Below, in pieces: positions 9,001 through 54,000 of a stretch of DNA of 64,000 bases. The stretch spans positions 94,054,001 through 94,118,000 of the forward strand of contig OZ241826.1 of NCBI GenBank assembly GCA_965202585.1, read 5' to 3'. Positions within the stretch are counted from its first letter, which is position 1. Every line of letters starts with the position of its first letter. This DNA is from Thalia democratica. Its lineage: Eukaryota. A program made the position numbers.

Positions 9001-12000
9001 ACAATTTAATTCAATTTTAACAGCTCTTCTTCATAATTTTGACATATGGATTACCAATTTAGAGGTTTGCTCGACATTCAACCGATGGAAGGTAGAAATG
9101 GTTGTACGATAACCAGGTTGGTTAACCGTAAAAATTTCAACTGGGCTATAATTGATTCAACAGTGTATGGATTTTGTTTGGCAAGTTTTATAAAAATGTT
9201 TGTTACTACTAGATGTCAGACCTCATATAATGATATGAAGCGTTACATTGAAAATTGAAGAATCAGTTGTTTTTATACGGTATTAGGTGAAAATCATTTG
9301 ATTCCTGATGCATTATTGAATGGATCTGTTGCTGCTTTCAGACAGTTTATCAAGAATGCTGATCCAAATTCAAAAATAGTTCGAATTTTCGTAAGGATTG
9401 ATTACTAAACGTTAGCTGGTATTTTGTATAACGTTATTGTTTACTACTATTTTTGATCGTTACGTTTTATAATAAAATGTTTGAGTTTTACAATAAATAA
9501 ATAAGTTATCTATATATCAATAGTGTTTTGTTGTTGTTGGAACTACCTTTTTTAGAAACTATCGTCAGACTAGTTATTAAACAAAATGTATACATAGTAG
9601 TAGTTATAAAATAAAGTACGTTTTTGCACTTATGAAATAAATAGATCAAAAATTGGCAGTAATGTATTAACTTACTTGAATAAATTTTTACAATTGGCTT
9701 CTATCTTCAGTAAAAGTATTCCATGGATCGCAGTAAACAGCATTTTTCAAAACAACAACAAAAATAAATGGTGACATTTATCAATTTCTATATAAAAATT
9801 TAATTCCCGCCACAACAACTATTTTTGGTAGTAATTTTCAAACAAAAAAATGGTCATTTGCGGGCCACATTTTACTTTTTCGTACCGATTTTGCCTGTGG
9901 GCAGCTGTTTAGCCATCTCAGTAACTAAGGGATTTAAATTGTGGAAACGCTAAGTTTAAAAATCTCATCATGTATCAAAGTGTAAAACATTTGGTCGGTA
10001 TAAAATTAAGCACCTGTTTACACAATCGGGTGGATGTCACTGTTGCACGAGCGTCACTTTTCGACGAGGGGATACTTTTGCACGAGCGGACACTTTAGCA
10101 CGAAGGGTCACTTTTGCACGAGCGGACACTATATCACGATGGGACAATTTTACACGGCGTCATTTTAGCACAAGGGGCCACTTTTGCACGCAGGGTAATT
10201 TACATTTTGGCACGATGACATTTTAGCACGGAACATCAATTTTGCATTTTGGTCAAAAGTTTTTTAGCTAGTATAACTTTTTTTTTACATAAAAAGAAAC
10301 TAAAAACTAAAATTTAATAACATACTTATATTAAAGTCAAAAAATAAAATATTTAAATTTTTAAACAGTAAAAAGTAATGTTAAAAACAAACTAAGGAAA
10401 GATAAAACAAAGTTATATATAAAAGATTCATACCAGGTACAAAAAATTTAATTTATTTAGAAACTAGGATGAAACATACTTTAAGTGTAAGTTAATTATT
10501 CTAGTTTATTTTGAACTTTAATATATTAATCAACAACTTGTCATCAAAACCTAGACCATTTAAACTGAAAGACACATGAAGAAAAAAAAAAGTTAACAGA
10601 AATAGTTTATTTATTAAAACAAAGATAAAAACATAATTTGATATTTAATTCATAGGTTAACATGAAAAACAAAACTTTAACCACAAACTACTTAACTTCG
10701 CTTTGATATAAATTGTTAGTATTGTAGATCGTACATTGTAGAACGATCAACGTCAAATATTTAAATGCATTGACTAACAACAAGAATAAAAACCTAACGC
10801 TTCAACGACATTAACAATAGACTGGCCATATGAATAATAATTAAATGCAATAAAAAAGCACTCATTATTTATAGAGTAAAGGTGCTGCTAATAAAATTGA
10901 ACTACTAATTAAGCTAAATATTAAAATTAAATCAACGGTTGTTAAAAATTATTTATTAATTTTACTAACACAAATATAATTCTCATAAAACTTTTTTACT
11001 TTAATTGAAATTCATTAAAAATTTTGCAAGAAACTAATTTATTTGTGAATTTGTACCATATTTAAACTGACCGTAAAAAAAGGAATTCTGATAAGCCTAA
11101 TTATTGAAATGTTGCAGCGGTTAAAGACTAATATAGTATATTTTCTTTGAATATAAGCTTAAACTTCCAAATGTTACTCTATCATTGGCTCATCATTATT
11201 ATGCAACATTATAGTAATGAAATAATCGAAGTTCAAATCATTAAAAACACGCTCTTTTATTTTTATTTTTATTCTCACGCTAAATTAAAAATTAAACTAA
11301 AAAATATGCATCAAGTAAAATCTGAAATACATTTCACTTCATAAATTAACTTTTTTTTTTCATTAACAATTCTTTAAAATTAAAATATATCTAAAATATT
11401 TGTTTAACAACTATATAATGCTAATCTTAATATCAACATAATTTAAGTAAAAAATAATATTCAAGATTCGTATTTTAAAGCCTTACTAAATTAGATTTAT
11501 CTTTTTGTTTAGAAATTAACGATTTTCAGACAAAATTTATTTAGAGAATTCAAAATTGTTTTTATTTGAAATTGGAAATTTTAGTTTATTTTAGTTAATC
11601 ATCTAGTTTATTTGAATTAAGATTAAGAATATAAATTAATGAATTGTGGTAACTGTAAAACTTCAAATAAAAATATTTTTTTAAGAATTTTATTTAATCA
11701 TTGACGACGTCTTTGCCGAAACTTGGTTTGTAAAATAATTTTTTGCAAGAATAAATTCATAAAAACTTTAGATTCAAATTTCATTAAAAAACTACCACAT
11801 TTATTCACTCAAAACAACGTGCGTTTAAAAGCGAATATTGTTTAAGTTGACAAAAAAATATCTAAGTTTTTATTTGAAAAAATAAAACATAGAAGCCTGC
11901 AAAAGTGAAGTTGCGATCAAAATTGACTGATTGTTTAAAATTTTCTCAGTTCATAAGTATATCCGTGAAAATATAACACCGTGCAAGAGTGACGTATTGC

Positions 12001-51000: not shown

Positions 51001-54000
51001 AATTCTACTAAACAGAGTTAACAACCTTTGTGAATAGCACCTTTATTGAGCACATATACAGATTTGAACACATTTCAAACTAAATTTAACTAAAAAATCT
51101 AGTTAAAAAATTAATTTGATGGTAATACCCAGATTAACTGAATGCTTCTTAAAATGCAACAAATGTTAAGTTATCGAATTTTTTAAACTTTTTTAATACA
51201 GTAAAATTATCGACCGTTTGTTTTTGATATTAACACTTTCCACTGTTTTTAAAATTTATTGAGACTACTGTTTCTGATTTGAAACATTCTTAACTTTTTT
51301 ACTAGTCTTGATATAGATTGAAGACACTAGAATCCGGATTCTTCGATTAAACAGGGTGTCTAGTATTTTATTAGGTTACGTTTAAATTAAGTTATTTAGA
51401 TAGAGATGTTTTTTTTAAATTGTTATAAAATTATTGGGACAGTAATCACTCCAAAATCTTGTACAAACTTTTTGTTTTAATGTTTTTTTCCTAGGACAAA
51501 AGACAAAGGATTTCAAATACTACCGAATTTAGTTGATTACTAATTGTTAAATTTTTATTCAGTAAAATTAGATAAATATAACAAATTTATTATGTTGTTC
51601 AAGCAAGTAAGCTTCTGAAATCGATAAATTTTTATGACGAATTTTAAAATAAAGCTTAAAAACAATAAAAAGAAATTGATCTGAAAACAATTGTTTTAGT
51701 TTTTAGGAACTTTTAATTACCTAAACAATTTTATTAGTTTTCCTGTAATTTGTTGGTAATCATTTCGTTATGTTATCAAATTCGTTATAGTTTTTTAGAA
51801 CTTTTTTTTACCAAAAAAAAAATATTAGTTTTCATTTAATTTTTTGGTAATCATTTTATTTCTGACAAACAGTAAAAGTTTTATTTATTATGTTGTTAAT
51901 TAAATTTTTTTTAATCAAAAATATTTTTAAAATAAGTTAGTGTTTTGTTTGTTAAGTACCTTTTTGAAATAATGCAAATAATTTTTGAATAATACTGTTA
52001 CAACTACTTAGAAAATTATCAGTTAATTATTAATGTCTTGTTTGTACTTTTGTAAATTACCTCAAGTTTTGTCATCTTGCAAGTAACAATCAATAAAGTT
52101 TGTTGTATAAATGAAAATTAGTTATTCATAAAAATTTTGTGTTCTTGTTATTAGATAGGAAGTAATTTGTTTATTCAATTGCACATACTTTTGGCAAGCG
52201 TATTAGCTTCATTATAAAAATAATTGTTTTAACTCTACTATATAAAACTTAAAATTGTATTTCAGTATTAGATGTATGTGTTTTTCACAACACCATCCAT
52301 CTAGAAGTTAATTACAATTAGTAGGTTTTGTACTAAAAACTCATCAAAATTTTGAATTTTTACACTTGTTCTAAAATAGTTAAAGTATTATATGTTAAGT
52401 AACTTTTTAAAGACAAAGTTTAGATCTATCATTTTATAATTGACGAGTTAATATGTGCTTTCTTATTTCCTTACGATAAATTTCTGAATTTTAGGTAGTT
52501 TGTTAGATTATAAACTAGAAATATTATAATTAAAATTTACTATTCAGTAATGATGAATTGATATTTTAAATAGTTTTAGTACTAATATCAAAGTAAATTT
52601 CAATTAAAAATAAATAATAATAAAAAGTACATAGCATACTAGATGACTTGAATGAGTATCATAATACTTGAAATATATAAATACTGTTTTTTTATATATT
52701 TATACTTTTATAATTGTTGAGGAAGTTTTTGTTCTATCTAAAATAAATAAAATTAAAATATTTGCTCTATTTAATACTGTTTTTAACAACGAAACTAAGT
52801 ATGAACAAACTTAAAATTTAAACTTATTGATGATTAATATAATTCAAAACGTTTGTAAAGCAACTAATATTTTTAAGTTTTACTTTTAATTGAATGTTTC
52901 GTAGTTTAACTCTAATTTCGGTCTCAATTAAATAGAATTATATATTTAAATTTTTTTACTTCAGTAAATGTAACCTGATTTCTGATTAAAATTTTTAAAT
53001 CAGCTTAGTTACTTAAATAAACAATTTAATTCAATTTTAACTGCTCTTTCACATAATTTTGACATGGATTACCAATTTAGAGGTTTGCACGACATTCAAC
53101 CGATGGAAGGTAGAAATGGCTGTACGATAACCAGGTTAGTTAACCGTAAAAAATTCAACTGGGGTGTAATTGATTCAACAGTGTATGGATTTTGTTTGTC
53201 AAGTTTTATAAAAAAGTTTGTTACCTCTAGTTGTCAGTCCTCATATAATTATATGAAGCGTTACATTGAAAATGGAAGAATCAGTTGTTTTTATACGTTA
53301 TTAGGTGAAAATCATTTGGTTCCTAATGCATTAATGAATGGATCTGTTGCTGCTTTCAGACAGTTTATCAAGAATGCTGATCCATGTTCAAGTATAGTTC
53401 GAATTTTCGTAAGGATTGATTACTAAACGTTAGCTGGTGTTTTATATAACGTTATTATTTACTACTATTTTTTATCGTTACGTTTTATAATAAAATGTTT
53501 GAGTTTACAACTAATAAATAAGTTATCTATATATCAAAAGTGTTTTGTTGTCGTTGGTATTACCTTTTTTAAAAACTATCTTTAGACTAGATATTAAACA
53601 AAATGTATACATATTCATAGTTATACAATTAAATGCGTTTTTGTACTTATAAATATTTTAGACCCACAATTTGCAGTAACGAATTCATTTACCTAAATAA
53701 TAATTTTCAAATGGCTTCTATCTTTAGAAAAAGCATTTCCTGGATAGCAGTAAACAGCAATTTTCAAAACAACAACAAAAATAAATGGTTACATCAGTCA
53801 ATTTCTATATTTTAGTTTAATTTAGCCACAACAACTTTTTTGGTAATAGTTTTAAAACAAATAAGTGGTTCCATGCTGGCCACATTTAATTTTTTCTCAC
53901 CGCTTTTCCTGTTGGCAGTAGTTTAGCCACGACAGTATTTTAGGAGTTTTAACGAAAACGTAGAGTAGAGAAAGGCATTTTTATTCTTGTATCAAAATTT

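What the first reader, a model, noticed from the sequence alone, without database searches (positions are those of the whole stretch)
9046..53426. Triplicated orphan 120-aa gene with a possible PB1/ubiquitin-like beta-grasp fold
Seen: three copies (9046-9408, 34744-35106, 53064-53426) of identical length with no indels, while the flanks accumulate indels. Copies 2 and 3 differ at 20 of 120 residues, with the termini fixed and changes spread across residues 9-110. Copy 1 has a single nonsense change. I recognise no family. Inference: the apparent pattern of strand (FRGLLDIQ), strand (CTITRLV), helix, inserted helix, strand (ISCFYTV), strand, helix (VAAFRQFIKNA), strand (IVRIFVRID) matches PB1/beta-grasp topology, without the acidic OPCA motif. 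It could be a lineage-specific stand-alone interaction module undergoing birth-and-death evolution.
Basis: partly seen in the sequence, partly recalled or inferred. Interest (0 to 1): 0.65.

Follow-up and report, generated by a model that had tools for sequence, protein, structure and literature searches.

The report
Triplicated small lineage-restricted gene, fold unsettled
Three copies of a small 120-residue gene with no known family sit in duplicated DNA of a very AT-rich eukaryote; two are intact and one is broken, the gene looks real, but its proposed ubiquitin-like shape is only weakly supported.

Summary
Three 363-nt copies lie at the stated coordinates; copy 2 is on the minus strand. 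Copies 2 and 3 differ at 20 of 120 residues. Copy 1 has one TGA at codon 71. The ORF has 0 indel events against 6.4-7.1 expected from its flanks.

The copies sit in 2.6-5 kb segmental duplicates, one of them inverted, not in a recognisable mobile element.

It looks like a real, intronless, lineage-restricted gene. Five relatives of 38-91% identity exist in public protein sets, all 120 residues or shorter, with the same start and end. No Pfam or PDB sequence match was found, and no longer or prokaryotic form.

dN/dS among the three copies is 0.87-1.87, resting on only 3-4 synonymous changes per pair. Even so, replacements run at half the flank rate and are more conservative than random (P=0.018).

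The fold is unsettled. One AlphaFold model (pLDDT 66) matches only ubiquitin-like/RA/PB1 domains, and weakly (best E 0.011, TM<0.5). A second model (pLDDT 64) gives no such match. PB1 membership is not shown.

Modest interest.

The parts
9046..9408 (+). Copy 1 of the 120-codon gene, with a premature TGA at codon 71 (9256-9258) and otherwise open; probably a recently disabled copy
   Evidence: Translation. It carries 6 replacements, 2 synonymous changes and 1 stop relative to the three-copy majority. A 2-bp indel lies directly upstream of the ATG.
34744..35106 (-). Copy 2, intact (P0002)
   Evidence: Translation. It carries 9 replacements and 2 synonymous changes relative to the majority.
53064..53426 (+). 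Copy 3, intact (P0001)
   Evidence: Translation. It carries 13 replacements and 1 synonymous change relative to the majority.
7490..10027 (+). Duplicated segment around copy 1, first part
   Evidence: BLASTN: 85.5% identity to 36677-34183, and 84.0% (from 7931) to 51973-54044.
12214..12806 (+). Duplicated segment around copy 1, continuation beyond the 2.2-kb insertion
   Evidence: 74-75% identity to 34190-33701 and to 54041-54618.
32042..36677 (-). Duplicated segment around copy 2, inverted relative to copies 1 and 3
   Evidence: BLASTN matches to the copy 1 and copy 3 segments. 50-column identity profile.
51973..56932 (+). Duplicated segment around copy 3
   Evidence: 81.8% identity to 36232-33684, 77.3% (54872-56051) to 33683-32485, and 71.2% (56412-56932) to 32492-32042.
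9409..9620 (+). Conserved stretch after the stop codon of copy 1, a likely 3' UTR. AATAAA words at 9471-9476 and 9492-9497 are kept in all three copies.
   Evidence: 13.7% variable columns and 1 indel event, against 26.5% variable columns in the distal flank. Alignment, sequence. The UTR reading is inference.
10028..12213 (.). Insertion found only in copy 1's segment. Its inverted ends are built of 18/36-bp subrepeats; probably a non-autonomous DNA transposon.
   Evidence: Inverted matches 10036-10190 against 12205-12057. Tandem repeats. Uninterrupted sites in copies 2 and 3.
7703..7995 (+). Short repeat 'X' about 1 kb upstream of the gene. It recurs about 1 kb downstream of the gene in copies 2 (33670-33501) and 3 (54758-55063), in the same orientation.
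   Evidence: BLASTN 72-74% identity.

Best explanation
This is a real, intronless, lineage-restricted protein-coding gene of a very AT-rich (about 24% GC) eukaryote. It is present here as three segmental-duplicate copies, two direct and one inverted. Two copies are intact and one was recently disabled by a nonsense change.

The product is a soluble, basic protein of about 14 kDa with one alpha/beta domain and no signal peptide or membrane segment.

Its most likely shape is a beta-grasp (ubiquitin-like) fold with an extra helix. It ends in Asp-Tyr rather than Gly-Gly, so it would not be conjugated. It would act by non-covalent binding to a partner protein, in the way RA, RBD, PB1 or Ubl adaptor domains do. 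The duplicates are drifting or diversifying, mainly by conservative replacements.

Shown here: the copies, the duplication structure, the absence of indels, the reduced and conservative replacement pattern, and the small set of relatives.

Inferred: transcription, the fold, and the binding function.
For: **Coding constraint**
- 0 indel events in the ORF against 6.4-7.1 expected.
- Summed over the three lineages there are 28 replacements, 5 synonymous changes and 1 stop. The flank rate and spectrum predict 56, 17.5 and 4.6.
- The mean BLOSUM62 score of the 28 replacements is 0.18 against -0.51 expected (P=0.018).
- ORF GC is 33% against about 18-25% around it.

**Start and stop are real**
- A 2-bp indel sits just before the ATG in copy 1.
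- The AG upstream of the ATG is not kept in copy 3.
- The TAA and two AATAAA words are kept in all copies.
- Relatives P0003 and P0004 start and end at the same residues.

**Long-term retention**
- P0004 (119 aa, 73% identical) is a complete ORF. P0005-P0007 (38-56% identical) keep 10 invariant columns.
- P0003 differs from the majority of the three copies at only 2 of 120 residues.

**Stands alone**
- An exhaustive phmmer search of 1.84 billion representatives of any length gave 4 hits, all 119 aa or shorter.
- A profile search among proteins of 211-2000 aa gave none.

**Fold**
- Model 1 reads E4-11, E22-28, H40-54, H61-69, E73-79, E82-85, H88-91, H95-105, E111-118.
- By their names, 45 of the 47 PDB rows listed are ubiquitin-like, RA, RBD, PB1, FERM-F1, RAWUL, DIX or superantigen beta-grasp domains. 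This classification is from my own knowledge.
- 6 of the first 10 BFVD rows are named ubiquitin or ubiquitin-like.

**Soluble**
- Maximum 19-residue hydropathy is 1.42, and pI is 8.3-9.4.
Against: - dN/dS among the three copies is 0.87, 1.52 and 1.87, so it is not below 1. It rests on only 3-4 synonymous changes per pair.
- No Foldseek hit reaches E<=0.001. The best is 0.011 with TM 0.46.
- Only 2 of 5 models in run 1 exceed pLDDT 60, and the N-terminal 30 residues score about 50.
- The second model (P0004 first, same seven sequences) leaves residues 1-19 below pLDDT 50. Its PDB search shows no beta-grasp entry; the best are Cas7/Csy3 chains at E 0.14 and TM below 0.3.
- Language-model features point elsewhere, to the Lrp/AsnC ligand-binding domain at 0.81.
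- Expression was not tested. The homologues come from unnamed short contigs (638-1407 bases) whose nature I could not check (unavailable).
Confidence: 0.45

Rival explanations
1. The three window copies are decaying or functionally redundant duplicates of a working progenitor that lies elsewhere. Copies 2 and 3 are still open only because too little time has passed.
For: - dN/dS is 0.87-1.87.
- With the flank spectrum, the neutral expectation is 3.2 replacements per synonymous change; the observed ratio is 28:5.
- Copy 1 already carries a stop.
- P0003 is only 2 residues away from the three-copy majority, while the window copies are 6, 9 and 13 away. A better-kept member therefore exists somewhere.
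- Copy 3 has radical changes such as L9H and D63Y.
Against: - No indel in 363 columns against 6.4-7.1 expected (P about 0.001-0.002).
- Replacements run at half the flank-based neutral number (28 against 56), with 1 stop against 4.6 expected.
- Replacements are more conservative than random (P=0.018).
- The copy with the stop is the least changed of the three, so the stop is recent and not the end of a long decay.
Confidence: 0.2
2. The protein is not a beta-grasp. It is a ferredoxin-like beta-alpha-beta-beta-alpha-beta sandwich of the RAM/ACT kind, with one extra N-terminal strand, that binds a small ligand or oligomerises.
For: - From residue 22 on, the predicted elements read strand, helix (two), strand, strand, helix, strand.
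- Among named ESM Atlas clusters the nearest are Lrp/AsnC ligand-binding domains (0.81), and all ten best named hits share that family or clan.
- The N-terminal hairpin that makes model 1 a beta-grasp is the least confident part, and it is not placed in model 2.
Against: - By the tool's own figures, a third of shuffled proteins reach a score of 0.8, and all-ten agreement occurs for a third of shuffled proteins.
- No member matches Pfam AsnC_trans_reg even at E<=10.
- No such structure appears among the rows listed from either PDB search.
Confidence: 0.15
3. The ORF is cargo of a mobile element or an integrated virus, and the three copies are insertions rather than segmental duplicates.
For: - There are three copies within 64 kb, each inside 2.6-5 kb of repeated DNA.
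- A 150-300 bp direct repeat (X) stands on both sides of the gene in copy 2, and downstream of the gene in copy 3.
Against: - The ends of the shared DNA differ for every pair of copies. Copies 2 and 3 share a further 1.6-2.4 kb beyond X, and copies 1 and 3 share 1-818 with 51137-51967.
- The two X copies flanking copy 2 are only 74% alike, less than the units are to each other, so X predates the duplications.
- No transposase, integrase or reverse transcriptase domain was found in the ORFs tested.
- The viral structure library gave only generic ubiquitin-like hits at E of 0.008 or weaker.
Confidence: 0.05

Closest known systems
PB1 domains (Pfam PF00564)
   Same: Similar size. Both share the order hairpin, helix, strand pair, helix, final strand. 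PB1 domains of NBR1, Cdc24p, MEKK3 and a PB1 complex are among the Foldseek rows of model 1 (ranks 3, 17, 19, 20, 24, 46). A basic residue (R or K) sits at position 6 of the first strand in all 5 sequences that cover it.
   Different: No Pfam PB1 match at E<=10 in 0 of 7 members. The strand 3-4 region has only two acidic residues where type-A PB1 domains carry an acidic cluster (the motif is recalled, read). There is an extra helix at 61-69. TM scores are 0.26-0.47. Model 2 does not reproduce the match.
Ras-association / Ras-binding domains (RA, RBD)
   Same: The best PDB matches of model 1 are the NORE1A RA domain (3ddc_B, E 0.011, TMq 0.46) and the PI3K gamma chain (8aj8_A, E 0.017). Rgl1/Rgl2 and the PI3K alpha RBD also appear.
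   Different: Sequence identity is 8-12%. No Pfam RA or RBD match. The match is not reproduced with model 2. RA and RBD domains are normally parts of larger proteins; this one stands alone.
Ubiquitin-like modifiers and Ubl domains
   Same: The beta-grasp class is the common denominator of the PDB and viral hits of model 1.
   Different: The family ends in Asp-Tyr (Glu-Phe in P0007), not Gly-Gly. There is no Pfam ubiquitin match. It is 120 residues long with an inserted helix.
Lrp/AsnC ligand-binding (RAM) domain, PF01037
   Same: Nearest named clusters by language-model features (0.81). The beta-alpha-beta-beta-alpha-beta element order fits from residue 22.
   Different: The score lies in the range that shuffled sequences reach. 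No Pfam match. That family is prokaryotic, whereas this gene sits in a eukaryote-like locus.
Taxonomically restricted, locally duplicated small-gene families in general
   Same: Few detectable relatives, a single exon, local duplicates, one pseudogene, and dN/dS near 1 among young copies.
   Different: Nothing unusual beyond the low synonymous and 3' UTR divergence relative to the flanks.

Membership tests
PB1 domain | Match to the family profile (Pfam PF00564) | tested here: not met
   hmmscan of all 7 members at E<=10 gave no PB1 hit. The intact copies matched 0 families at E<=1.
PB1 domain | Acidic cluster on strands 3-4 (type A) or a conserved basic residue on strand 1 (type B). These features are recalled, not drawn from a call. 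| tested here: inconclusive
   Read from alignment A1. There is no acidic cluster: only E82 and D88 in that stretch. R or K stands at position 6 in 5 of the 5 sequences that cover it, but equivalence to the type-B lysine is unproven.
PB1 / RA / ubiquitin-like (beta-grasp superfold) | Five-stranded mixed sheet gripping one helix, shown by a significant structural match | tested here: inconclusive
   Model 1: 45 of the 47 listed PDB rows are of this class, but 0 reach E<=0.001 and TM is 0.47 or less. Model 2: none of this class among the rows listed. Model confidence is pLDDT 66 and 64.
Ubiquitin-like modifiers | C-terminal Gly-Gly for conjugation | tested here: not met
   All 5 sequences that reach the C-terminus end in D-Y or E-F.
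RA / RBD domains | Binding to GTP-loaded Ras-family GTPases | not testable with these tools
   No partner is known. Only a weak fold likeness exists.
Lrp/AsnC RAM domain | Match to Pfam PF01037 | tested here: not met
   No hit at E<=10 in 0 of 7 members. The only support is an ESM Atlas feature score of 0.81.
Transposon or virus protein | Known mobile-element domain, or defined element ends around every copy | tested here: not met
   No such Pfam domain. The unit ends differ between copy pairs. A genome-wide census was not possible.
Any solved protein family | Sequence match to a PDB chain | tested here: not met
   Profile search of A1 against 177,635 distinct PDB sequences gave 0 hits at E<=10.

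The most novel reading that the evidence does not exclude
This may be a previously undescribed stand-alone beta-grasp family. On this reading its young duplicates are under diversifying selection at the protein surface while the whole transcript, synonymous sites and 3' UTR included, is held nearly constant. That pattern would suit a fast-evolving recognition or antagonism module, for example in immunity, reproduction or host-symbiont conflict, with an added RNA-level constraint or ongoing conversion from a conserved master copy.
Probability: 0.12. Interest if true: 0.55.

Novelty: new variant of a known kind. Interest (0 to 1): 0.3.

Why it matters
If the fold and binding role hold, this adds a small, sequence-orphan member to the ubiquitin-like superfold that exists on its own rather than as a domain of a larger protein. 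The locus also shows duplication, divergence and loss side by side. That is useful as an example, but it does not change any general picture.

One feature is less ordinary. Synonymous sites and the 3' UTR have changed two to three times less than the surrounding DNA, while replacements have not been spared in proportion. This needs the rest of the family to explain.

Tried and rejected
- **Self-association.** Complex prediction with two copies of P0002 returned 'no answer' (score 0.00, partner fold uncertain). It is no evidence either way.
- **ESM Atlas, all clusters.** Recognition was 1640, below the tool's mark. The nearest clusters were unnamed prokaryotic hypotheticals and MACPF/cytolysin sets at 0.91-0.94. 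I treated these as noise.
- **Rfam and tRNA.** Rfam at gathering thresholds found 0 RNA families in the window and ARAGORN found 0 tRNAs. No annotated RNA explains the nucleotide conservation.
- **Prokaryotic genomes.** 48 pattern matches, none confirmed by tblastn.
- **Literature.** A full-text search for a 12-residue stretch of the protein found 0 papers. A search on 'beta-grasp', 'taxonomically restricted' and 'tandem duplication' listed 10 of 68 papers. I saw only the listing and the starts of abstracts, and none concerns this family. I can say only that I found no description.
- **Non-standard code.**
  - The 17 codons after the TAA reach a TGA in copies 1 and 2 but not in copy 3.
  - The 469-codon Kelch ORF has no in-frame TAA or TAG.
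  - A ciliate-type code is therefore unlikely.
  - TGA as a sense codon in copy 1 is not supported, because the other copies have GGA or GAA there.
- **Spliced reading.** The AG 25 nt before the ATG in copies 1 and 2 is not kept in copy 3, and copy 1 has a 2-bp indel between it and the ATG. I rejected the idea that the ORF is the last exon of a larger coding sequence.
- **A fourth copy.** 55935-56027 gives E 0.06-0.27 to residues 48-78, but the frame is full of stops. Not counted.
- **Source organism.** The origin of the relatives and the size of the family stay unchecked.
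Full report
**Setting**

The window is 64,000 bases with no N and about 24% G+C throughout. Under the standard code it has only four ATG-ORFs of 100 aa or more:
- a BACK+Kelch ORF at 17094-18503 (-);
- a divergent 14-3-3-like ORF at 49218-49967 (+) (Pfam);
- two of the three copies in question.

The window has no tRNA and no Rfam family. This looks like a gene-poor stretch of an AT-rich eukaryotic genome, probably an animal judging from the BACK-Kelch architecture (my inference). 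I could not name the organism. Nothing suggested human sequence.

**The observation**

The three coordinates are exact. Copy 1 (9046-9408, +) and copy 3 (53064-53426, +) read directly. Copy 2 (34744-35106) is on the minus strand.
- Each copy is 120 codons plus TAA.
- Copy 1 has one TGA at codon 71 (9256-9258), where copy 3 has GGA and copy 2 GAA.
- Residue differences are 14 (copies 1/2), 17 (1/3) and 20 (2/3). The 20 lie between residues 9 and 110.
- Nucleotide differences are 20, 22 and 25, so the tree is star-like.

The ORF has no indel event. The upstream flank has 18 events in 1031 columns and the distal downstream flank 10 in 409. That predicts 6.4-7.1 events in the ORF (P about 0.001-0.002).

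ORFs of this length are not expected by chance here. The stop probability is 0.087 per codon, and 100 shuffles gave a mean of 0.07 such ORFs against 4 observed. tblastn with all seven family proteins finds no further copy in the window.

**What surrounds the copies**

Each copy lies in a larger block of shared DNA.
- 7490-10027 matches 36677-34183 at 85.5%, and 7931-10027 matches 51973-54044 at 84.0%.
- 12214-12806 continues the match to both other copies.
- Copy 1's block is interrupted at 10028-12213 by a 2.2-kb insertion. Its inverted ends are made of 18/36-bp subrepeats, and the sites in copies 2 and 3 are uninterrupted.
- Copies 2 and 3 share still more, in inverted orientation: 32042-36232 against 56932-51973.
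- Copies 1 and 3 also share 1-818 with 51137-51967 at 89%.
- A 150-300 bp repeat ('X') stands about 1 kb upstream and about 1 kb downstream of the gene. The two X copies flanking copy 2 are only 74% alike.

The shared DNA ends at a different place for every pair of copies. I found no terminal repeats or mobile-element domains. I therefore read these blocks as segmental duplications and not as insertions of an element.

**Is it a gene?**

Several lines of evidence say yes.
1. Both ends of the ORF are defined.
   - Copy 1 has a 2-bp indel immediately before the ATG.
   - An AG 25 nt upstream is not kept in copy 3.
   - The TAA and two AATAAA words 63 and about 85 nt after it are kept in all copies.
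2. ORF G+C is 33%, against about 18-25% around it.
3. Relatives exist.
   - P0003 is 120 aa, 91% identical to copy 2 and 94% to copy 1.
   - P0004 is 119 aa and 73% identical.
   - P0005, P0006 and P0007 are fragments of 94, 70 and 82 aa at 38-56% identity.
   - They share the same first and last residues where complete, and ten invariant columns.
   - All come from contigs of 638-1407 bases. That length would fit transcripts of a gene this size, but I could not check it (unavailable).
4. An exhaustive phmmer scan of 1.84 billion representatives found only 4 proteins, none longer than 119 aa. Profile searches among similar and longer lengths added nothing. Prokaryotic genomes gave no relative.

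The family is therefore small, restricted and stand-alone, as far as these collections go.

**Selection**

Nei-Gojobori dN/dS is 0.87, 1.52 and 1.87 for the three pairs, but on only 3-4 synonymous differences each.

Set against the flanks the picture changes. I assigned each change to the lineage that departs from the three-copy majority.
- Observed: 28 replacements, 5 synonymous changes and 1 stop.
- Expected from the flank rate and spectrum: 56, 17.5 and 4.6.
- The replacements are more conservative than random single-base replacements: mean BLOSUM62 is 0.18 against -0.51 (P=0.018).

So the protein is under some constraint. The odd part is that synonymous sites are even more spared, as are the 210 nt after the stop (13.7% variable columns against 20-26% in the distal flanks). 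The star-like distances do not show any single recent pairwise conversion.

P0003 differs from the majority of the three copies at only 2 of 120 residues, so a better-conserved member exists elsewhere. Conversion from such members, selection on the transcript, or a locally lower mutation rate all remain open.

Copy 1, the one with the stop, is the least changed of the three (6 replacements). Its stop is therefore recent.

**Fold**

Sequence methods give nothing.
- Pfam: 0 families for the intact copies, and one stray hit (YcxB, E 0.18) in 1 of 7 members at E<=10.
- PDB sequences: 0 hits at E<=10.

AlphaFold2 on the seven-sequence alignment with copy 2 first gave pLDDT 66.2 and pTM 0.59. Only two of the five models exceeded 60. 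The element order was strand 4-11, strand 22-28, helix 40-54, helix 61-69, strand 73-79, strand 82-85, short helix 88-91, helix 95-105, strand 111-118.

Foldseek against the PDB found no match at E<=0.001. By their names, 45 of the 47 listed rows are ubiquitin-like-superfold domains:
- NORE1A RA (E 0.011, TM 0.46);
- PI3K RBDs;
- NBR1, Cdc24p and MEKK3 PB1 domains;
- the TBCE Ubl;
- RAWUL, DIX, SUMO and FERM-F1 domains.

The viral library agrees weakly, with 6 of the first 10 rows ubiquitin-like and a best E of 0.008.

The second model, with P0004 first, has pLDDT 63.8 and keeps the elements from residue 40 on. It leaves residues 1-19 below pLDDT 50. Its PDB search returns no beta-grasp entry; the best are Cas7/Csy3 chains at E 0.14 and TM below 0.3.

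The ESM Atlas points, at a score that shuffled sequences often reach, to Lrp/AsnC ligand-binding domains (0.81). Their beta-alpha-beta-beta-alpha-beta order also fits residues 22-118.

The beta-grasp reading is thus the best available, but it is not robust, and PB1 is not distinguished from RA, RBD or Ubl. The family lacks a C-terminal Gly-Gly and lacks an acidic cluster on strands 3-4. It keeps R or K at position 6.

**How it most likely works**

I commit to the following reading. The product is a soluble protein of about 14 kDa (pI 8.3-9.4, no membrane segment). It folds as a beta-grasp-like single domain and acts by non-covalent binding to another protein. It is encoded by a young, locally duplicating family in which copies diverge and are lost.
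- The gene and duplication part I hold at about 0.9.
- The fold at about 0.45.
- The binding role is inference from the fold class.

A self-association test gave no verdict and is not evidence.

**Left unchecked**
- The rest of the source genome.
- Expression of any copy.
- The nucleotide sequences and origin of the relatives.
- The closed collections metagenome contigs and viral contigs.

Two literature searches found no description of the family: 0 papers, and a listing of 10 of 68 papers, of which I saw only the listing.

**Verdict**

This is a new small family of a familiar kind, of modest interest. One feature remains unexplained: the low synonymous and 3' UTR divergence.

Noticed in passing
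window 10028-12213 (related array at 19466-19615): A 2.2-kb insertion present only in copy 1's duplicated block. Its two ends are inverted arrays of 18/36-bp subrepeats, the sites in copies 2 and 3 are uninterrupted, and similar short words flank both ends. It is probably a non-autonomous DNA transposon. A similar 18-bp array stands alone at 19466-19615.
   Followed up: partly
window 49218-49967 (+) and 46351-46850: An intronless, divergent 14-3-3-like ORF of 249 aa (Pfam 14-3-3, E 2.6e-27) ending in a hydrophobic tail, which is unusual for 14-3-3 proteins. A degenerate relative lies 2.5 kb upstream: 67% nucleotide identity and protein-level fragments at 46563-46786.
   Followed up: partly
window 17094-18503 (-) and 30133-30354 (+): A 469-aa ORF with BACK and Kelch repeats but no BTB domain inside the ORF, so an upstream exon is likely. 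A Kelch-like fragment 42% identical to residues 329-399 lies at 30133-30354.
   Followed up: partly
window 14407-14799, 58051-58224, 63038-63159: Arrays of one 32/64-bp satellite at three places, the last one inverted.
   Followed up: no
window 27512-28054 (+): Two adjacent open frames richer in G+C. They are Arg/Glu-rich and contain a 21-bp tandem repeat (27820-27930), with no Pfam family. They may be exons of an unrecognised gene.
   Followed up: partly
window 1-818 versus 51137-51967: An 89% match that extends the copy 1 / copy 3 duplication upstream. In copy 1 it is separated from the rest of the unit by 7.1 kb that copy 3 lacks.
   Followed up: no
window 55935-56027 (+): Weak protein-level likeness to residues 48-78 of the family (E 0.06-0.27), in a frame full of stops. 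It lies downstream of copy 3 beyond repeat X and may be a relic of an older tandem copy or a chance match.
   Followed up: partly
window 9046-9620 and the matching parts of copies 2 and 3: Synonymous sites (5 changes against 17.5 expected) and the first 210 nt after the stop codon have diverged far less than the distal flanks. This is unexplained.
   Followed up: partly
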